Positions 23,804 through 40,300 are shown, numbered from the whole stretch's first letter. The stretch is DNA of 60,474 nt, filler included, from Fonticula-like sp. SCN 57-25 (GCA_001724245.1; 5 parts of 5 records of this genome joined end to end with filler, not necessarily neighbours in it), one strand, 5' to 3'. The notes: generated by a model not told the origin, from the sequence alone. Program-made: numbers and translations.

Positions 23804-25353
23804 TAATGAACTGTACACTATGGAAATAATGCATTATGCATTTTTGATATTGCTATAAAAGATGGAGCTATCTAGACGGTGCTAGTACTGGTACTACAAG
23901 GGAAGCTGAGTGGCCATATCCATACAACCGCACGACTTCACATGCTAGTAGCTTTTGCTACTGGGGCACAGCGCGAAAATGAAAGGATTATGGAAGAGCA
24001 CAATGATGTACCAGCAGGTCCAGCACCACTAGAGAGAAATGAGTGGCCTTCCACCTCTATGCTGATAGCTTTTACAACCAGGGCACAGGCCGTGCCCGGT
24101 TGTAAAAGCTATCAGCACCAGAAGTGGTCTCTGTAGGGTTGTAGCTCAATCTATGGACTGTGATTTTCGACGTGATTGGTCGGACGTGGGTGGCATCCTG
24201 TCGTGTGGGCGCGCGAGGTCAATATAGTTTTGAACCTATTATTTGCTATTATATTATTATTAGCTATTACTTGTGGCTATTACTTTATAGTTGATAGCTA
24301 TTATTTCATTGTATGATAGCTATTATTTCACAATTTTGATGGGTATTATATAATTCGATAGCTATTACATCACAGTGCCTAATAGCTATGGCTCGGTCCA
24401 GCGGGGATTCAAGACTAGATCGTATTGGGTCAGATTCGACCTGTCGCGCACGCATTTCACGGGCATTGGGCAGCAGCAATGGCGCCACTTCACGTATGCC
24501 TATTCTATGCGCAACTGGCAGGCGTTCCTTAATGAACCATCCCTCTTCCTCCGCAAACGCCCTTTTCAGATTCGCAACTGCGCTAGCCGACCAGCTGGCC
24601 GTAGGCGGGCGGGTCCTTGATGAGCGGCACAACAACAGACGGTTAGAGCTTGTGCATGAAGCAAGGCAAGTACGCCGAAAAGGGACAACTTACCGCCGCG
24701 CATTTTCCAAGCCTCCACGCATCTTGGTTAGGATTCGCCATTCCAAAAGCGCCTCCTCTTGCACTGGAGCCAGCAGCGGCCTAGGTTCACGCCAGCCAGC
24801 GACGCAACAGAACCGCTACCAGGCGCAAANNNNNNNNNNNNNNNNNNNNNNNNNNNNNNNNNNNNNNNNNNNNTTAATTAATTAANNNNNNNNNNNNNNN
24901 NNNNNNNNNNNNNNNNNNNNNNNNNNNNNTCAGGGTGTAGCGCGAGTGACACTGTATCCATCATGATTAATAACAATGACGATTTTGAAAGTTTTCTTTG
25001 GTTTGCACTTTGAAGGGCAAAAAAGACCATTTATGCTTGTTTTACCTCACGTCAAAGTGTCTTTCATGATAAGCATGGCATACATTCATTTATTGGATCA
25101 CATTCACAATGTTGGTCAAAGTATCACTTTCAGTACAAGCATGAACAGCCTTTCTGAATGAAGCAAGTCCAATGGCACAATTGGGCAAACCTGTAAAGAC
25201 CCTCTCTTCTGATTGGACAATGCTAAAGGACCCTCTCTTTTGATTGGACAAATAAAATTATTCATGGTTCACTCGAGTGTATTGTCTCGTCATATCTACA
25301 ATGGGCGTCAACACCGGCGACGCGCAATAAAACAATAAAGAAAACACTAAAGA

Positions 25354-25430
25354 GAATCAGGAAATATAGAGTTTCATCCAGCCTCATTAGAGTTCAGGAT
25401 TAGCATGAAATATTTTGGAAACATCACATG
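25354..25430 (-). ncRNA. Box C/D snoRNA 8, candidate U6 snRNA Am53 guide (mgU6-53/SNORD8-9-like)
   Basis: C box GTGATGT; D' CTGA with a 10-nt guide to U6 GAUUAGCAUG, +5 = A53; D box CTGA. Confidence 0.65.
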
Positions 25431-25534
25431 AAAAGAGCACGAACAGTCTCGAATAGGGCGCGGCCATACCTGCCAAACAGCACAGTTAGTACAAGTGTAA
25501 ACATAAACCAAACAAAATATAACAAGTATACAAA

Positions 25535-25636
25535 GAGGAATGAAGGGATCAGAAAGCTGGGTTTATGATGGGTCGTCAACGTTTTTCAGTCGAAAGATGG
25601 TGATCAAATTTCTCTCATCACTTTCCTTCATTCCTC
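25535..25636 (-). ncRNA. Box C/D snoRNA 7, double guide: LSU Am807 (snR39/59-like) and Cm2948 (snR69-like)
   Basis: D' guide to CGAAAGAUGGUGA; D guide to AGCUGGGUUUA; 12-bp flanking stem gaggaatgaagg/ccttcattcctc. Confidence 0.85.
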
Positions 25637-25797
25637 ACAACACAACACGAAAGAAAAAAAAAAAGAATATGACGCGTACCTAATAGAATGGTAGCCAATG
25701 GTCGTACGTTGTTGTTACCTTAAGTCGGCAGTCTACAAGAGCAGAGTAAGTATGCATGCAATATAATCACCCAAAACAAATAAAACAACACAATGCA

Positions 25798-25872
25798 AGG
25801 ATCAGATTAAGCTTCTCCATCAGGTGTTACTCTCAGACTCGAAAGATGGTGTAATTTGCTATCATCAGAATA
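25798..25872 (-). ncRNA. Box C/D snoRNA 6, snR39B/SNORD2-like (LSU Gm805 yeast)
   Basis: D' guide complementary to CGAAAGAUGGUG, +5 = G; TGATGA and CTGA boxes. Confidence 0.82.
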
Positions 25873-26031
25873 CCTCACAATACAACACACAAAAAACAAT
25901 CCAATAAAGATAAACGTACCGGTTATGAATAAAGAGGCAAACCAACCCGCCAAAAGCAACGAAACGCTACCATAAAGCGCCCAATGTAAGCATGTTATGC
26001 CAGATAATAATAGATAAAAGGCAGAAATGCA

Positions 26032-26112
26032 TGCATCAGATAAAACAACTCCATCAAAGTAAATACTCAGACGGCAATTCCTATCAATGTGTATTTTGTT
26101 TTTTCATCCCAC
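26032..26112 (-). ncRNA. Box C/D snoRNA 5, snR77/SNORD65-like (18S Um578 yeast)
   Basis: C box GGGATGA, C' TGATGG, D and D' CTGA; guide pairs with CGGUAAUUCC with one G-U. Confidence 0.7.
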
Positions 26113-26228
26113 AACAGCAATACTAAACCGCATCGCAAACCAATGAAACTTACCCAAAATAGTCGACCTATTCAAGTAAAAGTCAGTATTGGAAAAAAGT
26201 AAAGGGGCAGAAAGAAAACACATGAAAT

Positions 26229-26312
26229 AGTATCAGAAGGTAAAACCACAGAAAAGACCGTTTTGTCAAACATGCAGGTTTTTAGACAGCCAAGGGATTG
26301 TTTCATCAGAAT
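26229..26312 (-). ncRNA. Box C/D snoRNA 4, U53/SNORD53-like (LSU Cm3848 human)
   Basis: D' CTAA with a 12-nt guide to ACAGCCAAGGGA (+5 = C); extra match to the overlapping AAACCACAG. Confidence 0.8.
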
Positions 26313-26484
26313 AGCACGCGCACAACATCACCCCTTCCTACACAAATAATAAACGCACCTTGATAGTAGGCGTGTCACGGCCTCATCGTCGTCATCGCGA
26401 GTCGACATGTGTCAAAGTCTATCAGACAGAGAGTTAGTTTCAAGTAGGCAAGGCAATACAACACGAAATAGGCACAAAAAATAA

Positions 26485-26584
26485 AGGATCAGACATCTAA
26501 GGAAGGACAGTTCAACTAGCATTAGTGGGCGACTGCCTACTCTTCAGTGGAAACTGCGAATGAACTGTTTGTTTCATCACACTT
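26485..26584 (-). ncRNA. U14: U14 (snR128) snoRNA
   Basis: Domain A CATTCGCAGTTTCCAC; domain B complementary to 18S ACAUCYAAGGAAGG (Cm414) next to the D box; GTGATGA C box. Confidence 0.93.
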
Positions 26585-26746
26585 TACGGAAAAAATAAAC
26601 ACACAATACTGAAAATTAACATACCTCGCTAGGACTGACGCAATGTTCTTGTGCAGAGGCGTAATGCCATAGCAGGCCTAGACGCGCATTGTAAGTAACC
26701 AAACAAAAGACACTTATTATAGGAGCAAAACAGAAACATATAGGAA

Positions 26747-26836
26747 GAGTCAGACAAAATGGGTAAAGGGTAAGTTGCCTGACGATCTCAACAGTTGAAA
26801 TTCTGACTGGGGCGGCCAGGCAAAGTCATCACACTC
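26747..26836 (-). ncRNA. Box C/D snoRNA 2, snR67/U31-like (LSU P-loop Gm2619 yeast)
   Basis: GTGATGA and CTGA boxes with GAGT/ACTC stem; D' CAGA guide complementary to ACUGGGGCGG, +5 = E. coli G2251 equivalent. Confidence 0.8.
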
Positions 26837-27021
26837 AAACCTCACACACGCGAAAAGAACACACATTTACGACAATAGACACAAAACATACCTCGAGAGC
26901 AAAAAGGCTCTTGTTTCAGATCATGAAGTACATGGTACAGGGCGGGGAATCTAGCAGGTCGAGGGGCAGGTCAGTGACAATGAACGAGAGCGGAAGAGAA
27001 ACACAAAAGAATAGAGGAGGA

Positions 27022-27126
27022 GCGTGTCAGGATTATTGGCTTGCACAGTCGCACGAATGCGACCGTGAGGACTTTTGACTCAGCATGGTCGATAAGTCGG
27101 GGTAAGAAGAACAAGCATCACCCACG
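27022..27126 (-). ncRNA. Box C/D snoRNA 1, snR190/SNORD12-like (LSU Gm2395 yeast / Gm3878 human)
   Basis: C box GTGATGC, D box CTGA, D' CTTA; guide matches LSU CGGGGAAAGAAGA with 1 mismatch and the +5 rule hits the third G; internal 10-bp UUCG hairpin; terminal stem. Confidence 0.65.
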
Positions 27127-27300
27127 TAAAGTGTATAGAGCAGTAGCAGCAGAGGCACACAGAGAGAGCAACATAGAAGCAAGAGCAACACAACCATAAA
27201 ACATTTCAACCAACTCGCACCATTTCATCCGGCCATCTTCAAGCCACGAGCGAGGCAAAAGAAAAGGAAAATCAAAGGAAAGAAACGCCACGCGGCGCTC

Positions 27301-27376
27301 TTTATACCTCAAAAAACTCCACGTGGCCATTCCGCCATTTCACGTGGCCATTTACGTTCGCCCCGCACATCACGTG
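27301..27376 (-). promoter_or_regulatory. TATAAA box and three CACGTG E-boxes upstream of the snoRNA host gene (divergent with PHYH)
   Basis: TATAAA 27306-27301; CACGTG at 27320, 27341 and 27371; CTTTCCTTT pyrimidine tract starting at 27282. Confidence 0.6.
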
Positions 27377-27488
27377 ATTAAATGATATGAATTTCCAAAT
27401 ATGGAAATTTCGCCGTAAAAGGCAAAGGAGTGTTGTTGGTTCCATGTCATTCTTTAGCTTGTCTCCGGCCCGGCCCTCCACCTCCACC

Positions 27489-28481
27489 ATGTCGGATCGC
27501 CTTGCCCAGACCCTTGGTCACCTCTCGAGCGCCCCCGCGGCCGCCGCCACCGCCTCTTCCTCCGCCGCTTCGGGCTATGAGTTTTCGGTTAACCGCAATG
27601 GTCGCCTGACTGCTGCCCAGCGCGACTTTTATGAGAAGAACGGCTTCATCGTCATCAAGGGCGTCGTCCCCCCGTCCGATCTCGAGGCGTACCGCGAGCG
27701 CTTCGTCAAGCTGTGCAACCGCGAGGTTGAGAGCCCCCCCATGATGACTGTGATGCGCGACCTGAGCAACGCCAAGGACCGTCACCTCAAGGGCGAGCAG
27801 ATCATCAACAAGGTCCAGCACTTTGAGGATGATGACGTGCTCTTTTCGTACTGCAAGCACCCCGCCGTGCTCGATTACGTCGAGAGCTTCATCGGCGGCG
27901 ACATCATGAGCGTCCACACGATGCTCATCAACAAGCCCCCGCACGTTGGCGCCCTCGGCCGCCACCCCCTTCACCAGGATCTGCACTACTTCCCCTTCCG
28001 CCCGGCCAACCGCGTCGTGTGCGCCTGGACGGCGATGGAGCGCGTGAGCAAGGCCAACGGCTGCCTCGTCGCCCTCCCCGGCACGCACAAGGGCACCCTT
28101 CTCGAGCACGACTACCCCGAGTGGGGCGACCAGGGCGGCGTCAACAAGATGTACCACGGCGTCAAGGGCATCAGCAAGGACGACAGCGCCATGGCCTACC
28201 TCGAGATGGACCCCGGAGACACCGTCTTCTTCCACCCGATCCTCATTCACGGCTCGGGCGCCAACATGACCAGCGGCTACCGCAAGGCCATCAGCTGCCA
28301 CTATGCCAGCTCAGAGTGCCACTGGATCGACGTCAAGGGCACCAGCCAGGAGTTTGTCGCCGAGGAGATCGCCGACCTCCTCAAGAAGATGACAAAGGGC
28401 GCCGACCTCAGCCTCACAATCCAGGACATCTTCCGCTACAAGAGCAGGCTCGTCCGCGGCGAGTACGGCGAGCTCGTGTAA
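27489..28481 (+). CDS. PHYH: Phytanoyl-CoA dioxygenase, peroxisomal
   Basis: PTS2 RLAQTLGHL; HTMLINKPP, HPLHQDLHYFPFRP, FFHPILIHGSG, RKAISCHYA. Confidence 0.95.
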   Translation: MSDRLAQTLGHLSSAPAAAATASSSAASGYEFSVNRNGRLTAAQRDFYEKNGFIVIKGVVPPSDLEAYRERFVKLCNREVESPPMMTVMRDLSNAKDRHLKGEQIINKVQHFEDDDVLFSYCKHPAVLDYVESFIGGDIMSVHTMLINKPPHVGALGRHPLHQDLHYFPFRPANRVVCAWTAMERVSKANGCLVALPGTHKGTLLEHDYPEWGDQGGVNKMYHGVKGISKDDSAMAYLEMDPGDTVFFHPILIHGSGANMTSGYRKAISCHYASSECHWIDVKGTSQEFVAEEIADLLKKMTKGADLSLTIQDIFRYKSRLVRGEYGELV

Positions 28482-28711: not shown

Positions 28712-31700
28712 TCACTTTTGCTTCTTGTCCTTTTGGGGCGCCGCGGCCTCGTCCTCGCGCTTCTTTTGCGCAAGCTTTCCCGCCTCTGCAAACACGCGCT
28801 GCATGTCGGCATCGAGCGCGCTCGACAAGAGCGCGATGCGCTGCCCGCCCGCGCGCTGCAGCTCGTCCATCGTCTCCTGGAAGACAATGTACTCGTCCGT
28901 CTCGTCGATGGGCAGCTCGACAAAGAACTCTTCCTCGAGGCCCGTCGGGAAGCTCCCAAAGCCGTTCTCGCCGTCCTCGTCGTCCTCGTCCTCGTCGTCG
29001 TCCTCGAAAGCGTCCATCTCGGCCGCGTCGTCCTCGTCGTCGGGCCCGCTCGGCACGGCCCCTTCCCTGCGCGCGGCCCTCCCCGCGCGGCGCGTGAGCT
29101 GCTCGAGGTACTGCGCATCCTTTTCGTTAAAGATGTCGTCCTCGTCGCCGATGGCGTTGCCCTCGTCGTCCTCCTCGACCTCGTCGTCATCGTCGTCGTC
29201 GACCTGCTGCATCATGCGGTTCTCGAGGTACGCGCGGCGCAACACCGCCGCCGGCATCGTCTGCAGGAACTTGGCCATCATGGCGACCGACGCAGGGAGA
29301 AAGTTTTGCGCGCTCGCGGGGAGCTGCTCGCTGGGCGTGCGCCACAGCTGGCACAGCGCAATGATCGAGAGCTTCTTGTCGTGCACGCGCACAAAGCGGT
29401 CAGCGTTGGCCGACCACGCGCCGAGGAACATATCCGTCCAGCCCTTGGACTCGAGGTGCGAGAGCGCCAGCGTAGAGTTGTACAGGAGCGCGTTGATGGC
29501 AACCTCGAGGCCGCACACAATCAGCGCGTCCTCCGAGGCGCGCCCCGCCGCCGGCAGCGCCATGTCAATCAGCGTCGGCACCACGTGGTCGATGCGGCCG
29601 CGCAGGCGCATCATGACGGCCTCGATGAGCTTGCACGCGTTGGAGCGCTCAATGTCGCCGGCGCGCGTCGACGTCATCACGCCCTCAATCATCTCGAGCA
29701 CCATCTGCAGGCGCGACGGGTCCGCCATAAAGGCGTCCGAGTCGACGCTAATGTAGTTGTCGATGGCGGGGACCATCTCGGTAAAGTAGTCGAACGCGCT
29801 CATCTTGTACGCCTGGTAAAGCATCGGGAGCACCGACCACATCATGTCAGAGATGGGGCGGCCGTGGATGTACGTGAAGGCGACGACCATCTCGAGGATC
29901 TCCTCAAGCATGTCAAAGTTGGCATTCTGAAGCACGTGCGACATGAGCGGGTAAAAGACGGGCTCGAGCTGCAGCAACACCTGCGGGTGGTCGTCCACCG
30001 CGCGGATCACCGTCAGCATCGTCCGAAGGATGCCCATGATCGTCAGGCCGAGGCCGCCAAACTCGTCATCGTCGTCATCATCGTCCATCATCGCAGCGAG
30101 GCCGCCGGCAGGAGCGCCCAGGCCGCTGCGCGAAAGCTCCTCCTCAAGCATGCCAAGGAACGTGTCGCGCATCTGCGTGCACAGCTGCACGGCAAACGGC
30201 GCCATGTCGTCGGCAAAGGTCTCTACAATGTTGCTCATCACTTGCGTGACGTGCTCAACGCTCGACTCTTGCGTCAGCGCAAGAAGCTCCTGCATCACGA
30301 TCTGCAGGCTCGGGCGGATGTGCTCCTGGACTGAGGGGGTAAACAAAAGTTAGTCGCACTATTTAAACCACAAAAAAGCGCACAGAAAGGCTTCTCGAGG
30401 AGGAAGCTGAGGGCGATGGCCGCCTGGACCTTGACCGGGAGCTCGGGGTCGCGCATGCCGCGAATGACCATGTCGAGGGCGCGGACGATCGTCTGCTCGT
30501 GCTCAAAGTTGAGGCTGCCAAACTGGCCGAGGACCCAGAGCGCGCGGGCGCGGAGGAACGGCGCCGGGCACTCGATCTCTGAGAGGACGTGCGTGTTGAT
30601 GAGCTCCTCCATCTGCGGGATGAGCCACTCGGACTCTTCGATGGTGGTGGACGCGGCCCCAATCATGGCGAGCGCGCCGTCCTTGTGGCGGTAGTTGCGC
30701 TCGGCGGGCGCGGCCGCCGCGTACGACGACAGGATCGAGTGGCAGAACTGGAGGACGACCATGAGCGTGCTCTTCTTGCGCATGCTCACCATACGGTGCA
30801 CAAAGTTCATGGCGGCGGCGACCGGCGAGCGGTACTCCTCCTGCGCGTCAAACTTGGCGCGGAGGTACTCGTGGGGGTCGCTCTCCCACATCTCCTGGTC
30901 GGCGTCCGTGTGGCACAGCAGCGGGAAGCACAAGTCCACAAGGAGCGGGCGCATGTTGTTCTTGAGAAGCGCCCACGTGACAGCGTGGTCAATGCAGTCC
31001 GACGAAAACTCGAGCGTGATTTGCACGAGGCGCGGGGCCACATACCGGCCCTCGATCACCTCGTTCATCTCGGCGAGCAGCGCCTGAAGAATGACAGGGG
31101 TAGTGCTCTTGAGGAACGACTTTGCAAACGCGCGGTGGTGGTCCGGCGCGAGCGTCGGGTTGCCGTACCGCGAGCAGAGGCGGTGAAGCGTGTGGTGGCA
31201 CCACTTTTTGGCGCGCCACCAGGGGCCGTGCGCGCGCTCCCACGGGTCGCTGTTCGCGTCCTCTGCCTGCGCGGGCACAGGCTTGGCCACAAGCGACAGC
31301 AGAGCAGGCACCCACTCGGACAGCGCGTCGCGCAGAGGAATCGAAATGTCGTGCTGAACGGCAGTGAAGAAAATCTTGTTGATAAGGTACATGATCTCGC
31401 CAGCTTCGCGCGTGTCGAGCGTCACGCACGTCTTGTAGTAGTGCAAAAGAACAGGGAAAGTCTGCTGCGTAATGTTGTCGAGCTCGGCGCGCTTGCCAAT
31501 GCCAGCGTACTCAAAGCGCCTCACCAGCTCAAGCAGGATCAGCAGGCCGCCGTGAACAACAGACGGATCCGGTGACGAAAGGAACATTACGACCTTGCCG
31601 AGAAGCTCGGGCCACTTTTCCGGGTAGTCGTGCTGAATAATGATGCCAACGGCAAACAAAAGCTGCGCGCGAAGACGCGGGGGGGACTGAAGGGCCGCCT

Positions 31701-32053
31701 CGACGATCACGCTGCGAACAACCGTGCGATCATGCTCGCTCAGGGTAAAGCGATCCGTCGACTCTCCCTCGACAAAAGGGCGCCAATACTTGATAAGGTT
31801 CTTAAAGTAGATAGCAGCTGGTATGCGCAAGCGCAAAAAACCGCCAGTAAGTAAGGATGAATAGAGCACAGCAATAGGTCGTACCAGACTGCTTCACGTG
31901 CGGCTCCACCGTCGGGATCGTCAAAATCTGCAGCAGCGATGAGCAAAAGCCGGGAACCGTCGAGTTTTCCCGAAGCTGCTTCTCAGCGGCCGTGCGGACC
32001 GCCGGGTCAGGGTTCAGCGTATTGGCCAGCAGGCCGTAGATGGCTTGCTCCAT
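28712..32053 (-). CDS. IPO7: Importin-7/8 (Nmd5/Sxm1 family), 3 exons
   Basis: IBN_N start (TLNPDPAVRTAAEKQL, AAIYFKN), DYPEKWP, WWRAKKW, HKDGAL, FLRARA, RVHDKKL, acidic tail. Confidence 0.92.
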
Positions 32054-34699: not shown

Positions 34700-36193
34700 T
34701 CATGTGGAACTTGACGAGCCAGCGGCCTCGGGCGCCGTCGTAATAGCAGTCGCGTCCGATGAGGCCGTTTCTGGCAAGCCACCCCCCACCAGAGTCTCGC
34801 CCTTTACAAATCCGCCCTGAGCTGGCGGCGGCGTCGCATCGTTCGTCTTCCCCTTTGACCGAGATGATTTGTGGCTGCGAGATGACGGCGAGCGGGACCG
34901 GCGTCGGCTGTGCGAAGCCGGCGAGCGCGATCGCCCGCGTTCGCGATGAAAGTGGTCGCGGCTGCGCGACGGCGGCGAGCCAACGTCGTGCGACGACGAC
35001 GAAAGAAACTTGCTCGTCACGTTCTCATTGTCGGCGCCAAGGCCGCGGCTTCCCTTTTGCTTGCTCGCTTTAATCGGCTCTGCAATGCCTTGCCCGTGCG
35101 CGCCCAGCCCCTGGCCTTCCTTGTATCCGAGCTGCTGCAACATTTTGCTGCCCTTTCCAAAGTCGACCGCCGGCGCGCTGTCATTGCGAGGGGCATAGGC
35201 CGGCGCGCCGTCGATCCACTGGCGGCCGCGGATGCCGCGCCTGCGCTCGTCGGGGTCCGAGTTTTCATTCGCAAGGGTGCGCCCGCGCGCGGCGCACTCG
35301 CGCGAGGCCTGCTGCGTAAGGGCGGCAATGTCGTCGTCGGTGGCAGAGTCGCCCGTCATTTCGAGATAGGCGCGCCAGACGCGAACCTCTGCATTGCAGT
35401 CATAGCAGTAATCGAGCCCGTCGACGAGCGGCACAGTGTGAGGGTACAGCGCTACGCGCGTCACCGTGTTGAAGAAGAAAAGCTGCTCCTCATAGAGGCG
35501 GTTGTCATACTCAACGTCGGGCGCGTCGCCCTCCACAATGAGGCGCGACTCTGTGGTCGTAATGGGGCCCCAAATTGGAAGACGAATTTCGCCCTTTGCG
35601 TACATGGTACGCCCGCCGGACCACGGAAGGCGGAACTTGAGCATGCTGCAGACGGGCTTCATGATGCGCATCCACCGCACCTGCGCGTCCTGATCGTCGC
35701 GGACGCGCCGATCCGTCTCGTCCTCTTCAACAAGCTGCCAGTCAGCGGAGCGAATGTCGCTCACAAAGAGCACGTTTTTGCCTTCAAATTCGCGCGCAAC
35801 GTCGTCAGAGAAGAACTCTTGGCGACACAAGATGTTTTCGCTCTCGCGGACCGTGAACGGTGCGGGATCAACGAGCACAAACTTGTGGCTGGGAAAAAGC
35901 TCGGCCAGCATCTTGATATGGGTACCGGGCGCCGCTCCTGCATAGACAACGATATCAGAGCGACTTCCATAGAGGGTTAAAAATTCCACTTCAGAGAGCA
36001 ACAGCTTGCGCTGGCCCCAATGAATCACGCTCTTGACCTCGCCAGTTCGCCGACGGTACTTTGCGATCTGCGAATCGGGCCCCAGTACGCGCGAAAAGGG
36101 GAGATCCGTGCGGCAGCTATAGCCAGCTTCAGTGTTGGTCAGAGCTTGGCGCACATGCGGGCTGCAGCGAGGATCCCGCCACTCGGCTGCCAT
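34700..36193 (-). CDS. Poxvirus VP39-type cap 2'-O-methyltransferase with C-terminal G-patch and RS-rich tail
   Basis: HWGQRKLLLSEVEFL, VVYAGAAPGTHI, FVSDIRS, KFRLPW, ESRL; G-patch GSKMLQQLGYKEGQGLG..GQGI.EPI. Confidence 0.85.
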   Translation of the reverse strand: MAAEWRDPRCSPHVRQALTNTEAGYSCRTDLPFSRVLGPDSQIAKYRRRTGEVKSVIHWGQRKLLLSEVEFLTLYGSRSDIVVYAGAAPGTHIKMLAELFPSHKFVLVDPAPFTVRESENILCRQEFFSDDVAREFEGKNVLFVSDIRSADWQLVEEDETDRRVRDDQDAQVRWMRIMKPVCSMLKFRLPWSGGRTMYAKGEIRLPIWGPITTTESRLIVEGDAPDVEYDNRLYEEQLFFFNTVTRVALYPHTVPLVDGLDYCYDCNAEVRVWRAYLEMTGDSATDDDIAALTQQASRECAARGRTLANENSDPDERRRGIRGRQWIDGAPAYAPRNDSAPAVDFGKGSKMLQQLGYKEGQGLGAHGQGIAEPIKASKQKGSRGLGADNENVTSKFLSSSSHDVGSPPSRSRDHFHRERGRSRSPASHSRRRSRSPSSRSHKSSRSKGKTNDATPPPAQGGFVKGETLVGGGLPETASSDATAITTAPEAAGSSSST

Positions 36194-36495
36194 GGCAGGG
36201 CGCGAACTGAATAGTGACACAGCGCCGCTATGGTGACACAACATGGCCCAATATGGCACATCACGAAAATGGCGCGAAATGGCGCGAAATCAATCACGCA
36301 CAGAAAAGCGGCTGGGAATAGAAAGGGGAATAAGTCCTTGTTTTTAATGCACGTTCTCTCTTCCATTCTATTCAAATTACTTGTATACAGTACAATTATT
36401 TACACAAAAAGTAGCTTATCGTTTGCATACTGTACAAAGGACGAATACATCCGAAATATGTCAAAACATTATTCGCGGCGCGCGCCGCACCACTT

Positions 36496-37309: not shown

Positions 37310-40300
37310 TCACCGCCTCACTGAGCGGTACTTTGGGTCGTGCGGGTTCTTGTTGACCATCGGCGCCGCCGGGAGGTCGTCGTCGAGGTAGACGCGTTTC
37401 ATCCCCCCGCTGACCTTTGCGCGCAGCTCCTGCAGCTCTGCGTCGCCCGCGAGGTTGGTCGAGTTCTTTTCGAGGTTGACCTTTTTCAGCGTCTTGTTCT
37501 TTCCGAGCGCCTCGAGGATCGCCTGCGCGCCAGAGTTGCCGATGCCGTTGTCGCGGAGGCTGACCGTCTGCAGCGAGCGGTTCTGCGAGAGCGCCTCGGC
37601 GACGACCCGCGCGCCGGCGTCCTGAAGGTTCCAGGCGTCCAGGTTGAGCCAGATGAGCGTCGAGTTCAGGTTGGAGGCAAAGACCTTCATCGCGTGGGCG
37701 GCGCCGTCAGAGCCGACCTTGACGACGGCGCAATTGAAGCGAAGAAGAGTCTTGTTGTGCTGAAGGCTGTCAAACAGGCGGCGGACATCCGCGGACTGAG
37801 CAAAAGTAAGTAAAGGGACAATAAATATACAGGAAATATACAGCAAATTAAATAATAAAAATCTCATGATCAATCATCAATGACACGCATGATCATACTC
37901 GCCATAATACTTTAAACACCCCTATAAAAAGAGAAAAGAAACGTACGTTCATGATGCTCGAGCTGATGTCGAGGTTCTGAATGGACGTGTTTGTGCGCAG
38001 AATATCACCGAGGAACGCATATCCATCCTACACCCTCATTAGCCACATTCACCATTAAAGAGTTCACGTACAGATCCGCAGTCGAGCGACTTTAGCGAGA
38101 GCGTCTGGAGCGACGAATTGTTCCTGAGCGCCGACTGGAGCACCGACAGCGACGTCTTGTCGACGCCATTCCCGCCAATGGAGAGCGACGTGAGCGTTGC
38201 GTTGGTCGTCAGCGCCGAGAAAATCATATTGACCGACTTTGTCTTTAGCTGCGTGGCGTGCATGTCGAGGACGCGGTAGACGCCCGCGGCGCCCGAGCGC
38301 TGCAGCGTCTCGCAGAGGAGCTCGACGACCTCGGACGAGAGCGGCACGTGCGCCATCTCGATGCGGTGCGGCTTGCCCTTCTTGGCGGCGACCTCGAGAA
38401 TCTGCTTGATCGTCTTGGCCTTGACCTTTGTGTGGTTCAGGTTGATCGACGTCATGAAGCGGCCGCTCTTGAGGCCGAGCGCGAGCTGCTTGCCGCCTTC
38501 GTCAGTGAGGCCGTTCATGGACACATTGACGGCCTCGAGCGAGCTGTGCGTTCCCATCGTGAGGCCGAGGGCGATGCAGAAGCTGTCGTGGATGCCAGTA
38601 TTGGAAAGGTTGACCGACTTGATCATGCCATTGTGCTGGAAGGGAAAAGGAAAGGTAGGGAAATGTAAGCAACAAAATTATAAAAGTGTGCAAAAACAAC
38701 CAAAAATATGGCTAAAATGAGGGCACACAGCAACAAACCCAAACAAAATCCAACAAAAGCCAAACAAAATCCAATAGGGACGCACGCGAATGCCGCGGTT
38801 GCAGAGGTCCACCGACGCCTTGTGCGACAGCGGGACGTTGCTCACATCGAGATGCGCAAGGTTGGCCGCGGTCGCCACAACAGTCACCAGCGCAGCGGTG
38901 TGGTCCGACGTCCACGTGGGGTTGTTGGACACGTCCAGGAGCTTGACAGGGAACGACTGAAGCGAAAAGAGCTGATGCCTACAAAATAGTTGTCAGCAAA
39001 CTGTTGTGCGCATAAAGACAAGGGCGTACAAGGACTCGATACTGGCGGCGGAGAGGCGCGGGTTGCCGCTGATGATGAACTCGCGGCACACAAAGTTGTG
39101 AACATATGTGTATCCCGGCGTCGGACTACAAGCGAGCATCAGCATCATTGGCATTCAATGGGCATGTTTTATAGTTATAATGAGATTAGCACGTACGTGA
39201 ATGAGAATGTCGCGATGAGCGCGTTGCGAACGGCCTTGAATTGGTCATCGTCAAAGTTGAGTCCCTCGAGGCTGAACGTGTCGCAGTTATTTCCGTTATC
39301 GAGCTCGCGATCGACGCGGTCGACGACGAGGCTGACGAGCTTGTTGAGGTTATTGGATTCGCTAATGTACACTTCCTTGAAAAGCTCGAGCTGCGACGGA
39401 AAGTTGGTGAGCATGACGCGCCTGAGCGGCTGCATAAACTCGTCGACCGGCGGCAGGTAAGGGATATCTGCAGGCGCGCTCGCGTCGAAAAAGAGCTTGT
39501 ACATTTGCAAGTAATCGCGCGCCGTCTGCAGCGCAATGATCGCAGACGTCTCGTACATGGAGAATGAAAAGGTTTCGGGCACAGAGCGGCCGTCGGCGGC
39601 GCGGCCGTACACGAACTGGAGCCCCGTGCTCGTCTGCGCGATGGACGAGATGCGGTCAAAGGAATAGTACGACCAGTCGCCGCACGACGCCTCGTGCTTC
39701 TTGCGGCACAGCAGCAGGCCGTCCTCGGCCACGCCAAACACAGCGTCCGCGCCAGACGTGATTTCATACATGTGCACGCCGTACGCGGGCGACTTTTTGG
39801 CAAAGCGAAGGTACTCGAGCTGCGCCTGCACCGTCGAAAAGCCAGTGTAGTGCGAGTGCTGGATGAACAGGCGGCGCTCCCAGTACTGCGGCGAGAAGCG
39901 CGTCGCATAGTACGCGGGGAGGAAGCGCTGAAGCTCGCGCGAGTCCTTGAAGAAGCCGGTCGTGTGCAGCTTGGGGTCGCGGTCGCCGTAAAGTACCTGG
40001 AGGTTCAGCGCAGCAAGGCGGACCGCAAGGTAGTCGCTCACGGGGTACTGGCCGCTCAGGATCGACGGCTGAACCTGGATCCACATAAGGTTGACAAAGC
40101 CGGGGTCGTCGAGCGACTTGGGCGTCTTGAAGTAGCGGACCTTGAGAACAAGGGAGCCGCCAAGGTCCTGCTGGTTCACCTGCAGACTTCCCTCCACCCA
40201 GCGGTCTGAAAACATGCAAGTTAGACACGGAAAAAGTGGGTAGGTGAGGGGAAGAAAGACAAAGCGTGGACAAAACGACAAAAGGGTCGACAAAGGAGGA

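What the first reader, a model, noticed from the sequence alone, without database searches (positions are those of the whole stretch)
25270..27376. Hidden non-coding host gene releasing eight intronic box C/D snoRNAs (GAS5/UHG-like)
Seen: this ORF-free 2 kb is periodic on the minus strand. Eight times over, a GT donor is followed by a pyrimidine-rich spacer, a C box, D' and D boxes, a branch point and YAG. Internal exons are only 0-60 nt, and every exon-1 ATG meets a stop within 10 codons (MAG*, MK*, MIPRPVPCTS*). Established: the guides pair with universal rRNA sites and obey the D+5 rule (18S Cm414 plus U14 domain A, Um578; LSU Gm805, Am807, Gm2395, Gm2619, Cm2948, human Cm3848). Inference: a dedicated, probably NMD-degraded 5'TOP host transcript in a protist, whose set of snoRNAs is not one I recognise from yeast or vertebrate clusters.
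Basis: partly seen in the sequence, partly recalled or inferred. Interest (0 to 1): 0.9.

Follow-up and report, generated by a model that had tools for sequence, protein, structure and literature searches.

The report
Non-coding gene hosting eight intronic snoRNAs
This ORF-free 2 kb looks like a non-coding gene whose eight introns each carry one small nucleolar RNA that guides methylation of ribosomal RNA, an arrangement already known from animals and fungi, so it is a clean but ordinary example.

Summary
On the minus strand of 25296-27275 lie eight box C/D snoRNA units, each inside its own GT...AG intron (174-270 nt). The D box ends 61-79 nt before the 3' splice site in all eight. The motif G|GTRHG occurs exactly eight times on that strand, each time at a predicted donor. 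Internal exons are 59, 53, 60, 14, 47, 53 and 0 nt, and the spliced RNA has no ATG ORF above 49 aa. Rfam gives no match at its curated thresholds. It gives significant or suggestive sub-threshold matches on all eight units, U14 at E 7.5e-9. Guides pair with conserved rRNA sites in register with the D+5 rule, tested on rDNA fetched from metagenomes. Two guides are imperfect (unit 1, unit 5). Unit 5 may be SNORD49-like rather than aimed at the 18S 530 loop. No RNA data could be obtained, so transcription, splicing, NMD and 5'TOP remain inference. The architecture is already described in mammals, Neurospora and S. pombe, including a zero-length exon in an S. pombe snoRNA host. Verdict: a real feature, a new member of a known kind, of modest interest.

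The parts
27320..27376 (.). Three CACGTG palindromes in the 270-nt gap between the host gene and the divergent phytanoyl-CoA dioxygenase gene. Putative shared promoter element.
   Evidence: 3 of the window's 33 CACGTG sites lie within 57 nt (27320, 27341, 27371). Function inferred.
27301..27306 (-). TATAAA box. It is followed 20-50 nt downstream by two pyrimidine runs (27285-27274 and 27271-27257) where transcription probably starts.
   Evidence: Read. The start site was not determined.
27221..27282 (-). Exon 1 (5' end a guess). Its three ATGs give MAG*, MK* and MIPRPVPCTS* after splicing.
26951..27220 (-). Intron 1 (270 nt, GTGCGA...CTGAC...TAG).
27023..27126 (-). snoRNA 1, SNORD12/HBII-99/snR190-like. 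C box GTGATGC at 27121, D' CTTA at 27096, D box CTGA at 27030, 4-bp terminal stem CGTG/CACG.
   Evidence: Rfam SNORD12 25.2 bits, E 0.043. The guide pairs with LSU GCGGGGAAAGAAGA over 12 bp with 1 mismatch; position 5 faces G, L006 LSU 2395. That rRNA site is invariant in 9 of 9 LSU loci.
26892..26950 (-). Exon 2 (59 nt).
26678..26891 (-). Intron 2 (214 nt, GTATGT...CTTAC...TAG).
26747..26836 (-). snoRNA 2, U31/snR67-like. C box GTGATGA at 26832, D' CAGA at 26805, D box CTGA at 26753, terminal stem GAGT/ACTC.
   Evidence: Rfam snoU31b 24.2 bits. The D' guide makes 10 WC bp with LSU CTGGGGCGGC (7 loci), position 5 facing G, L006 LSU 2618. The D guide makes 10 WC bp with a site in the LSU 5' domain (6 loci). 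The stem appears in the MFE fold.
26625..26677 (-). Exon 3 (53 nt).
26419..26624 (-). Intron 3 (206 nt, GTATGT...CTAAC...TAG).
26485..26585 (-). snoRNA 3 = U14. C box at 26580, domain A at 26562-26550, domain B guide at 26506-26493, D box at 26492.
   Evidence: Rfam SNORD14 49.7 bits, E 7.5e-9, full-length model match, below the gathering score of 64. Domain A makes 13 WC bp and domain B 14 WC bp with 18S; position 5 faces C, L006 SSU 404.
26359..26418 (-). Exon 4 (60 nt).
26168..26358 (-). Intron 4 (191 nt, GTGCGT...CTGAC...TAG).
26230..26312 (-). snoRNA 4, SNORD53/92-type guide. C box CTGATGA at 26309, D' CTAA at 26285, D box CTGA at 26236. The D guide has no clear target.
   Evidence: Rfam SNORD53_SNORD92 partial match, 16.6 bits. 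12 WC bp with LSU ACAGCCAAGGGA (9 loci); position 5 faces C, L006 LSU 2365.
26154..26167 (-). Exon 5 (14-nt micro-exon).
25967..26153 (-). Intron 5 (187 nt, GTAAGT...CTTAC...TAG).
26034..26114 (-). snoRNA 5. C box GGGATGA at 26110, D' CTGA at 26070, C' TTGATGG at 26057, D box CTGA at 26039. The target is ambiguous: LSU peptidyl-transferase region (SNORD49-like) or 18S 530 loop (snoR77Y-like).
   Evidence: Weak Rfam matches: SNORD49 17.2, snoR77Y 19.3, Plasmodium snoR28 20.4 bits. LSU: 4+9+4-5 bp with mismatches at positions 6, 7 and 17; position 5 faces C, L006 LSU 2877. 18S: 11 bp with 2 G.U, one of them at position 5.
25920..25966 (-). Exon 6 (47 nt).
25733..25919 (-). Intron 6 (187 nt, GTACGT...CTTAC...TAG).
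25795..25873 (-). snoRNA 6, snR39b-type. C box CTGATGA at 25868, D' CTGA at 25836, C' at 25823, D box at 25805.
   Evidence: Rfam snoMe28S-Am982 27.5 bits. 12 WC bp with LSU CGAAAGATGGTG (20 loci); position 5 faces G, L006 LSU 823.
25680..25732 (-). Exon 7 (53 nt).
25470..25679 (-). Intron 7 (210 nt, GTACGC...TACTAAC...CAG).
25535..25636 (-). snoRNA 7, double guide, with a 12-bp terminal stem. C box at 25621, D' CTGA at 25589, D box CTGA at 25552.
   Evidence: Rfam snoMe28S-Am982 37.8 bits, E 3.4e-4. The D' guide makes 13 WC bp; position 5 faces A, two nucleotides 3' of unit 6's target (L006 LSU 825). The D guide makes 12 bp (1 G.U) with GAGCTGGGTTTA; position 5 faces C, L006 LSU 2946. Fold z-score -4.53, 0 of 200 shuffles as stable.
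25469..25470 (-). Zero-length exon: the CAG acceptor of intron 7 abuts the GTATGG donor of intron 8. Candidate recursive splice site.
   Evidence: Use of the site is inferred from geometry: a TACTAAC branch 17 nt upstream of the AG, and the donor 43 nt before the next C box.
25296..25469 (-). Intron 8 (174 nt, GTATGG...TTGAC...TAG).
25354..25431 (-). snoRNA 8, snR53/snoR53Y-type. C box GTGATGT at 25427, D' CTGA at 25397, C' TGGATGA at 25380, D box CTGA at 25360.
   Evidence: Rfam snoR53Y 22.8 bits. 14 bp (1 G.U) with 18S ATTAGCATGGAATA; position 5 faces A, L006 SSU 779.
25089..25295 (-). Last exon (3' end a guess), with AATAAA at 25094-25089 and a duplicated 26-nt CCAAT-containing unit at 25195-25251.
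   Evidence: The poly(A) site was not determined.

Best explanation
A non-protein-coding, multi-intron RNA polymerase II gene on the minus strand, from about 27282 to about 25089. Its only evident product is eight box C/D snoRNAs, one per intron.

Shown by sequence:
- eight C/D units;
- eight GT...AG introns with uniform geometry;
- tiny, ORF-free exons;
- guides complementary to conserved rRNA sites in the D+5 register.

Inferred from the established pathway for intronic snoRNAs (recalled: Kiss and Filipowicz 1995; Hirose and Steitz 2001):
- The core proteins (Snu13, Nop56, Nop58, fibrillarin) assemble on each C/D motif while the intron is spliced.
- This is favoured by the roughly 50 nt between the snoRNA and the branch point.
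- The lariat is debranched, and 5'-3' and 3'-5' exonucleases trim back to the snoRNP.
- The spliced exon RNA is a by-product. It starts with very short ORFs, so it is probably short-lived.
- The mature snoRNAs then direct 2'-O-methylation of 18S and LSU rRNA, and U14 also chaperones 18S processing through domain A.

The directly abutting acceptor and donor at 25470/25469 most likely work as a zero-length exon. Introns 7 and 8 would then be removed in two steps, so that each lariat still carries a single snoRNA.
For: - Strand bias of box motifs: CTGA 21 v 5, TGATG 12 v 1.
- Rfam: 17 of 20 matches at E<=10 are CD-box families, all on the minus strand, and they cover all 8 units. U14 has E 7.5e-9 and Am982 E 3.4e-4. 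Across the window, 6 of 7 CD-box matches at E<=5 lie here.
- Splice signals: G|GTRHG occurs 8 times, all at predicted donors. In 2000 shuffles no trial gave more than 2 of 8 units with full signals, against 5 observed.
- Geometry: D box to 3' splice site 61-79 nt in 8 of 8, and D box to branch A 49-63 nt in the 5 introns with a YTRAY branch. This matches the spacing the N. crassa paper reports for intronic snoRNAs (passages).
- Coding potential: longest spliced ATG ORF 49 aa.
- rRNA targets: exact complementarities of 12-14 nt to rRNA in units 3, 4, 6 and 7, and 10-11 nt in units 2 and 7. All are in D+5 register. L006 was confirmed as a full eukaryotic rDNA unit.
- Window-wide control: of the 6 minus-strand sites with >=11-nt complementarity to conserved rRNA followed by CTGA within 0-3 nt, 5 lie in this region. 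The three control combinations give 0, 1 and 2 sites.
- Host-intron size: coding-gene introns nearby are 53-71 nt with the same GTRNG donors, so the host introns are about three times longer, enough to hold a snoRNA.
- Precedents: UHG-like non-coding hosts in N. crassa. In S. pombe, five snoRNA-bearing introns in SPNCRNA.659 and a zero-length exon in the snoRNA host SPNCRNA.445 (passages).
Against: - No expression evidence of any kind. No RNA run was listed and no genome or relative is held.
- No unit reaches Rfam's curated score.
- Unit 1's guide has an internal mismatch against a site invariant in 9 of 9 LSU loci.
- Unit 5's guide is imperfect for both candidate targets.
- The second guides of units 1, 4, 5, 6 and 8 have no convincing conserved target. 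Hits at that stringency are as common on antisense rRNA.
- I saw terminal stems only in units 1, 2 and 7.
- The transcription start and poly(A) site are guesses.
- A scaffold join (runs of N) lies about 160 nt beyond the AATAAA.
- The rRNA used is from unrelated metagenome eukaryotes, not this organism.
Confidence: 0.8

Rival explanations
1. A polycistronic snoRNA precursor. The eight snoRNAs are cut apart by an RNase III-type endonuclease and exonucleases without any splicing, as in S. cerevisiae clusters, plants and trypanosomatids. The splice-like motifs would be incidental.
For: Such clusters exist. The yeast snR190-U14 dicistron is processed by Rnt1 (passage), and plants and trypanosomatids use polycistrons (passage). 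Unit 7's 12-bp external stem could in principle serve a nuclease.
Against: G|GTRHG occurs only at the 8 predicted donors. All 8 have G at -1, 8 of 8 have a YAG 61-79 nt after the D box, and branch-like motifs sit 13-21 nt before it. In 2000 shuffles no trial gave more than 2 of 8 such units. I saw no spacer stem-loop between units other than unit 7's own terminal stem.
Confidence: 0.07
2. The same host gene, but the AG|GT at 25470/25469 is not used as a zero-length exon. Either units 7 and 8 share one 384-nt intron, or the last exon starts at 25469 and unit 8 is exonic.
For: An exon-encoded snoRNA (CD6) is reported in an N. crassa cluster (passage). No RNA data bear on this junction.
Against: A perfect TACTAAC branch lies 17 nt before the CAG, which sits 79 nt after unit 7's D box. 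GTATGG lies 43 nt before unit 8's C box. A branch plus TAG lies 61 nt after unit 8's D box. Both halves therefore have the geometry of the other six introns. A zero-length exon in a snoRNA host has been shown experimentally in S. pombe (passage).
Confidence: 0.35
3. The host RNA is functional in its own right (a micropeptide or a regulatory lncRNA), and the snoRNAs are passengers.
For: ORFs of 35 and 49 aa exist in the spliced model. Roles for host RNAs beyond carrying snoRNAs are discussed for mammals (abstract of PMC7719101 in the listing).
Against: Three upstream ATGs with stops within 10 codons precede every longer ORF. The 49-aa ORF lies in the last exon and has no support. Exon conservation could not be tested.
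Confidence: 0.05
4. A decayed or silent cluster: snoRNA pseudogenes that are no longer expressed.
For: Mismatches in the guides of units 1 and 5. C boxes carry one mismatch in units 1, 5 and 8. No RNA evidence.
Against: D boxes are exact in 8 of 8. Guides of 12-14 nt are perfectly complementary to rRNA in units 3, 4, 6 and 7. All eight sets of splice signals are intact. U14 is described as vital in diverse eukaryotes (passage), and it is the only U14 match in this window.
Confidence: 0.05

Closest known systems
[quoted passage not shown]
   Same: One C/D snoRNA per intron of a host with only short ORFs. Similar distances from snoRNA to splice sites. A cluster that joins an snR190/HBII-99-type snoRNA with U14. 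Table 1 lists family equivalents for several units here: snR53, snR77, snR39b, snR69 and U14.
   Different: Eight snoRNAs in one host here, in a combination that paper does not describe. The organism is not a recognisable ascomycete. There is a zero-length exon. The Neurospora hosts were verified by RT-PCR, and this one is not verified.
Mammalian UHG (SNHG1) and GAS5 (recalled; GAS5 and UHG are named as the comparison in PMC2780460)
   Same: A non-coding, multi-exon host with one C/D snoRNA per intron about 70 nt upstream of the 3' splice site. Short upstream ORFs. A pyrimidine-rich start region.
   Different: Not orthologous. By recall only U31 (unit 2) is shared with UHG, and none with GAS5. 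Introns here are about 200 nt and exons 0-60 nt. TOP and NMD behaviour are untested.
S. pombe snoRNA hosts SPNCRNA.659 and SPNCRNA.445 (bioRxiv 10.1101/226894, passages read)
   Same: Five introns each surrounding one snoRNA. An internal zero-length exon (a 3' splice site immediately adjacent to a 5' splice site) in a snoRNA host ncRNA, removed recursively and conserved in the genus.
   Different: Those were shown by spliceosome profiling and RT-PCR. Here the zero-length exon separates two snoRNA-bearing half-introns and is only predicted.
S. cerevisiae snR190-U14 dicistronic unit (PMC5934358, passage)
   Same: Co-transcription of an snR190-type snoRNA with U14.
   Different: The yeast unit has no introns and is cut by Rnt1. 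Here another snoRNA (the U31-like unit 2) sits between the two, and each lies in its own intron.

Membership tests
Box C/D snoRNA | C box RUGAUGA near the 5' end and D box CUGA near the 3' end | tested here: met
   D box exact in 8 of 8. UGAUGA exact in 5 of 8 (units 2, 3, 4, 6, 7) and with one mismatch in 3 of 8 (units 1, 5, 8).
Box C/D snoRNA | Antisense element of 10 nt or more, with the 5th nucleotide upstream of D or D' facing the target | tested here: met
   Units 2, 3, 4, 6, 7 and 8 make 10-14 bp with conserved rRNA sites in register. Unit 1 makes 12 bp with 1 mismatch. Unit 5 is imperfect for both candidate sites.
Box C/D snoRNA | Short terminal stem bringing C and D together | tested here: inconclusive
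   Clear in units 1 (4 bp), 2 (4 bp) and 7 (12 bp). Weak or not seen in the other five.
Box C/D snoRNA | Stable 60-110-nt RNA bound by fibrillarin, Nop56, Nop58 and Snu13 | not testable with these tools
   No RNA run listed.
U14 / SNORD14 (RF00016) | Score at or above Rfam's gathering score (64 bits) | tested here: not met
   49.7 bits, E 7.5e-9 on 2.7 kb and 1.7e-7 on the whole window. The match covers the full model, 1-111.
U14 / SNORD14 (RF00016) | Two 18S-complementary elements: domain A, and domain B next to the D box | tested here: met
   13 and 14 WC bp. A pattern built from both elements with a 300-330-nt gap retrieved 97 or more rDNA stretches. L006 was confirmed as SSU-5.8S-LSU.
Non-coding snoRNA host gene (UHG/GAS5/SNHG class) | One snoRNA per intron, at a fixed distance upstream of the branch point and 3' splice site | tested here: met
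   8 of 8, at 61-79 nt from the 3' splice site. Donors are unique to the predicted positions.
Non-coding snoRNA host gene (UHG/GAS5/SNHG class) | Spliced RNA without a meaningful ORF | tested here: met
   Longest ATG ORF 49 aa. The first three ATGs stop within 10 codons.
Non-coding snoRNA host gene (UHG/GAS5/SNHG class) | Exons poorly conserved while the snoRNAs are conserved | not testable with these tools
   No related locus could be obtained.
Non-coding snoRNA host gene (UHG/GAS5/SNHG class) | 5'TOP transcription start | tested here: inconclusive
   Pyrimidine runs of 12 and 15 nt lie 20-50 nt downstream of TATAAA. The start site is unknown.
Non-coding snoRNA host gene (UHG/GAS5/SNHG class) | Transcribed, spliced, and unstable through NMD | not testable with these tools
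   No RNA run listed.
Recursive splice site / zero-length exon | A 3' splice site directly abutting a 5' splice site, with its own branch point | tested here: met
   TACTAAC, then 17 nt, then CAG|GTATGG at 25470/25469.
Recursive splice site / zero-length exon | Two-step removal seen in intermediates | not testable with these tools
   No reads available.

The most novel reading that the evidence does not exclude
The host gene may be an ancient linkage group, not a recent assembly. It joins an snR190/SNORD12-type snoRNA with U14, the pair co-transcribed in S. cerevisiae and N. crassa. By my recall it also joins an snR67-type with an snR53-type snoRNA, another yeast dicistron. It does so in an organism whose neighbouring proteins are only 34-60% identical to any named animal or fungal protein. 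If so, these pairings would predate the divergence of that lineage from fungi. The zero-length exon would then show selection to keep one snoRNA per lariat even after an exon has shrunk to nothing.
Probability: 0.2. Interest if true: 0.5.

Novelty: new member of a known kind. Interest (0 to 1): 0.3.

Why it matters
It gives a ready annotation for a stretch that gene finders would leave empty: eight snoRNAs, seven or eight predicted rRNA methylation sites, U14, and a complete intron-exom map of a non-coding host. It adds a data point outside the model animals and fungi for the rule 'one snoRNA per intron, about 70 nt from the 3' splice site'. It also offers a second candidate, after S. pombe, for recursive splicing through a zero-length exon in a snoRNA host. 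None of this changes current understanding. A specialist would expect such genes in any intron-rich relative of animals and fungi.

Tried and rejected
- RNA evidence: the look-up of sequencing runs listed no RNA holder, so read laying could not be used.
- Genome: no whole genome is held for the window. The organism's own rRNA, other snoRNA loci and relatives were therefore out of reach.
- Rfam at gathering scores: 0 matches in the window.
- Earlier findings: nothing by place, sequence or words.
Where it finished, it gave as many antisense as sense hits, so it was too noisy to assign the second guides of units 1, 4 and 5. At the looser cut-off of 10 bp with up to 2 G.U, chance hits on antisense rRNA were also common. 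I therefore relied on exact matches shared by several loci.
- Perfect complements of unit 5's guide were sought in the 97 loci and not found.
- Other window sites with 12-15-nt rRNA complementarity (53967, 48310, 10357, 8874) were read and did not look like snoRNAs.
- Taxon: the three protein searches gave no close named relative. PhyH is 54-60% identical to animals, Capsaspora and an unnamed opisthokont. SURF4 is 34-38% identical to Blastocladiella and Coemansia. The cap-methyltransferase search, set to 'longer' proteins, was uninformative.
- The paper by Mitrovich et al. 2010 on snoRNA-host intron loss is not held. What I say of it, and of the yeast snR67-snR53 dicistron, is recall.
- Supplementary tables of the papers were not opened. 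Those of PMC2780460 may list the exact make-up of clusters I-V.
- The bacterial promoter/terminator scan is irrelevant to a eukaryotic gene.

Full report
WHAT IS THERE

I read 25000-27700 on the minus strand and located every landmark by coordinate.

The region is strongly strand-asymmetric. On the minus strand of 25200-27450 CTGA occurs 21 times against 5 on the plus strand. TGATG occurs 12 against 1, and TGATGA 5 against 0. The plus strand shows an AT skew of about +0.3 across 25500-27000, so the minus strand is T-rich. No ORF of 60 aa or more in any frame lies between 25162 and 27117.

Eight units each have a C box, internal D'/C' boxes and an exact CUGA D box. Each sits inside a GT...AG interval:
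- 27220-26951
- 26891-26678
- 26624-26419
- 26358-26168
- 26153-25967
- 25919-25733
- 25679-25470
- 25469-25296

These intervals are 174-270 nt long.

IS IT MORE THAN CHANCE?

- The motif G|GT[AG][ACT]G occurs exactly eight times on the minus strand of 27275-25296, and all eight are the predicted donors. The plus strand has two.
- All eight donors have G at -1. Seven acceptors are TAG and one is CAG.
- The D box ends 61-79 nt before the acceptor in all eight. The donor lies 43-100 nt before the C box.
- YTRAY branch candidates lie 13-21 nt before the AG in five introns, which puts the branch A 49-63 nt after the snoRNA. The other three introns have CTTAC.
- In 2000 shuffles of the flanks no trial gave more than 2 of 8 units with a donor and a branch-plus-YAG in the right windows. 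Five were observed under that strict test.
- Introns that I could recognise in neighbouring coding genes are 53-71 nt and use the same GTRNG donors and CTAAC/CTGAT-type branches. The host introns are ordinary introns of this organism, enlarged about threefold.

RFAM

At curated thresholds the window has no match. With E-value reporting on 2.7 kb there are 20 matches. Of these, 17 are CD-box families, all on the minus strand, and between them they cover all eight units:
- SNORD14 at 26485-26585: 49.7 bits, E 7.5e-9, full model length.
- snoMe28S-Am982 at 25546-25626: 37.8 bits, E 3.4e-4.
- snoMe28S-Am982 at 25795-25873: 27.5 bits.
- SNORD12 at 27049-27131: 25.2 bits.
- snoU31b at 26747-26836: 24.2 bits.
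- snoR53Y at 25370-25434: 22.8 bits.
- Weak matches for unit 4 (SNORD53_SNORD92).
- Weak matches for unit 5 (snoR77Y, SNORD49, Plasmodium snoR28).

Over the whole 60-kb window at E<=5 there are 12 matches. Seven are CD-box families and six of those lie in 25540-27131. The hit stays below Rfam's own cut-off of 64 bits.

DO THE GUIDES FIT rRNA?

No genome is held for this window, so the organism's own rRNA was not available. I built a pattern from the two U14 antisense elements with a 300-330-nt gap and scanned the metagenome collection. One of them, L006, is a complete SSU-5.8S-LSU unit by Rfam. Nine of the 97 hold both an early and a late LSU marker.

Exact complementarities shared by several loci (most loci hold only part of the rDNA):

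| Unit | Guide | Length | Loci of 97 | Note |
|---|---|---|---|---|
| 3 (U14) | domain A | 13 nt | 97 | by construction of the search pattern |
| 3 (U14) | domain B | 14 nt | 16 | by construction of the search pattern |
| 4 | D' | 12 nt | 9 | |
| 6 | D' | 12 nt | 20 | |
| 7 | D' | 13 nt | 20 | |
| 7 | D | 11 nt | 28 | |
| 2 | D' | 10 nt | 7 | |
| 2 | D | 10 nt | 6 | |

Unit 8 makes 14 bp with one G.U in L006 and L042, and 14 bp with two G.U in L079.

Printed as duplexes, every one of these puts a paired rRNA nucleotide opposite the fifth position upstream of D or D':

| Guide | Faces | L006 position |
|---|---|---|
| U14 D | C | SSU 404 |
| Unit 8 D' | A | SSU 779 |
| Unit 6 D' | G | LSU 823 |
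| Unit 7 D' | A | LSU 825, two nucleotides further |
| Unit 4 D' | C | LSU 2365 |
| Unit 2 D' | G | LSU 2618 |
| Unit 7 D | C | LSU 2946 |

As a window-wide control I looked for complementarity of 11 nt or more to rRNA words conserved in at least five loci, followed by CTGA within 0-3 nt. This is found six times on the minus strand against sense rRNA, five of them in this region. The three control combinations of strand and rRNA sense give 0, 1 and 2. Two of the five are the U14 elements used to fish the loci. The other three are independent.

- The D' boxes of units 1, 2 and 4 are variants: CTTA, CAGA and CTAA.
- The C box of unit 4 is the perfect CTGATGA at 26309.
Its best support is the SNORD12 match, which aligns the same element.
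- The same unit 5 guide differs by one base from the SNORD49 and Plasmodium snoR28 consensus. It pairs with the LSU peptidyl-transferase region over 4+9+4-5 bp, with mismatches at positions 6, 7 and 17 and a C at position 5. I regard its target as open and lean to the LSU site.
- The second guides of units 1, 4, 5, 6 and 8 have no convincing conserved target.

NAMES OF THE SITES

Table 1 of the N. crassa paper (rows read) equates:
- snR53/snoR53Y with 18S-Am793
- snR77/snoR77Y with 18S-Um575
- snR39b with 26S-Gm785
- snR69 with 26S-Cm2906
- snR190/HBII-99 with 26S-Gm2357
- U14 with 18S-Cm411

A table in PMC3511168 gives U14 as yeast Cm414 and human Cm462. I had no yeast or human rRNA to number against.

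THE HOST RNA

The first exon is taken from about 27282 and the last to the AATAAA at 25094-25089. Joining the exons gives an RNA of about 560 nt. The longest ATG ORF is 49 aa.

Internal exons are 59, 53, 60, 14, 47, 53 and 0 nt.

Upstream lie a TATAAA (27306-27301) and three CACGTG palindromes within 57 nt (27320-27376; 33 in the whole window). They sit in the gap shared with a divergent phytanoyl-CoA dioxygenase gene. Two pyrimidine runs follow the TATA box, so a TOP-like start is possible, but the start site is unknown.

THE ZERO-LENGTH EXON

At 25470/25469 a CAG acceptor, with a perfect TACTAAC 17 nt upstream and 79 nt after unit 7's D box, is followed at once by GTATGG, 43 nt before unit 8's C box. 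Both halves have the geometry of the other six introns.

The simplest reading is recursive splicing. The first step joins exon 7 to this point and recreates a donor (TAG|GTATGG). The second step removes the rest. Each lariat then carries one snoRNA, which exonucleolytic trimming requires.

This is inference. It has a direct experimental precedent: an internal zero-length exon in the S. pombe snoRNA host SPNCRNA.445, conserved in the genus (bioRxiv 10.1101/226894, passages).

MECHANISM

Shown:
- the anatomy;
- the complementarities;
- the lack of coding potential.

Inferred from the established pathway for intronic snoRNAs (recalled literature):
- Pol II transcription;
- snoRNP assembly coupled to splicing;
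- debranching and exonucleolytic trimming to the snoRNP;
- decay of the spliced by-product;
- methylation of the listed sites;
- the chaperone role of U14 domain A.

COMPARISON WITH WHAT IS KNOWN

N. crassa has six box C/D clusters. [quoted passage not shown] Cluster V joins CD16 (snR190/HBII-99 type) with CD37 (U14) (passages).

S. cerevisiae co-transcribes snR190 and U14 as a dicistron (passage). S. pombe SPNCRNA.659 has five introns, each around one snoRNA.

The present locus is therefore a new member of a known kind. It is not an orthologue of GAS5. By recall only U31 is shared with mammalian UHG.

The co-occurrence of an snR190-type unit with U14 is the one hint of deeper conservation. 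So, by recall, is the pairing of an snR67-type with an snR53-type unit. With eight of perhaps 60-100 families in one host, chance overlap is not small.

THE ORGANISM

It remains unplaced:
- PhyH is 54-60% identical to animal, Capsaspora and 'Opistho-2' proteins, and 75% identical to one unnamed assembly protein.
- SURF4 is 34-38% identical to Blastocladiella and Coemansia.
- The window also encodes FERM, FAM91, importin-like and G-patch cap-methyltransferase-like proteins.

'Protist' is compatible with this but not demonstrated.

LIMITS

- No RNA data.
- No genome and no relatives.
- The rRNA comes from unrelated metagenome eukaryotes.
- Supplements of the cited papers were not opened.

VERDICT

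| Question | Result |
|---|---|
| Observation | confirmed |
| Core interpretation | supported at sequence level (confidence 0.8) |
| NMD, TOP, expression | untested |
| Novelty | new member of a known kind |
| Interest | 0.3 |

Noticed in passing
window 24831-24929: Two runs of N flank the literal string TTAATTAATTAA. This looks like a scaffold or contig join rather than native sequence. What lies beyond about 24940 may not be the true downstream neighbour of the host gene.
   Followed up: partly
window 27320-27376 and 27491-28481 (+): Three CACGTG E-box palindromes lie within 57 nt, in a roughly 270-nt bidirectional promoter shared by the snoRNA host and an apparently intronless phytanoyl-CoA dioxygenase gene (PF05721). 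That gene is 54-60% identical to animal and Capsaspora proteins.
   Followed up: partly
window 25195-25251 (last exon of the host): A 26-nt unit containing a CCAAT motif (minus strand) is duplicated 31 nt apart at 92% identity. It could be a promoter element of a downstream gene or a recent duplication.
   Followed up: no
window 24060-24117 and 24229-24374: A 23-nt inverted repeat (96% complementary, 12-nt loop) gave weak miRNA-family matches on both strands. Beside it is a run of degenerate direct repeats built on ATAGCTATTA. Possibly a small mobile-element remnant.
   Followed up: no
window 34700-36289 (-): This ORF combines a poxvirus-VP39-type cap 2'-O-methyltransferase domain (PF01358) with a G-patch. 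Its best 'longer' relatives (up to 51% identity over about half the query) are large multi-domain fusion proteins from metagenomes and a dinoflagellate.
   Followed up: partly
window 30331-30383, about 31820-31883, 39126-39196 (-): Introns recognisable in the coding genes are very short (53-71 nt), with GTRNG donors and CTAAC/CTGAT-type branches. Coding GC is about 62% against about 40% in introns and spacers.
   Followed up: partly
L006 218-288 (-): A tRNA gene sits in the spacer of the metagenome rDNA unit used as the rRNA reference.
   Followed up: no
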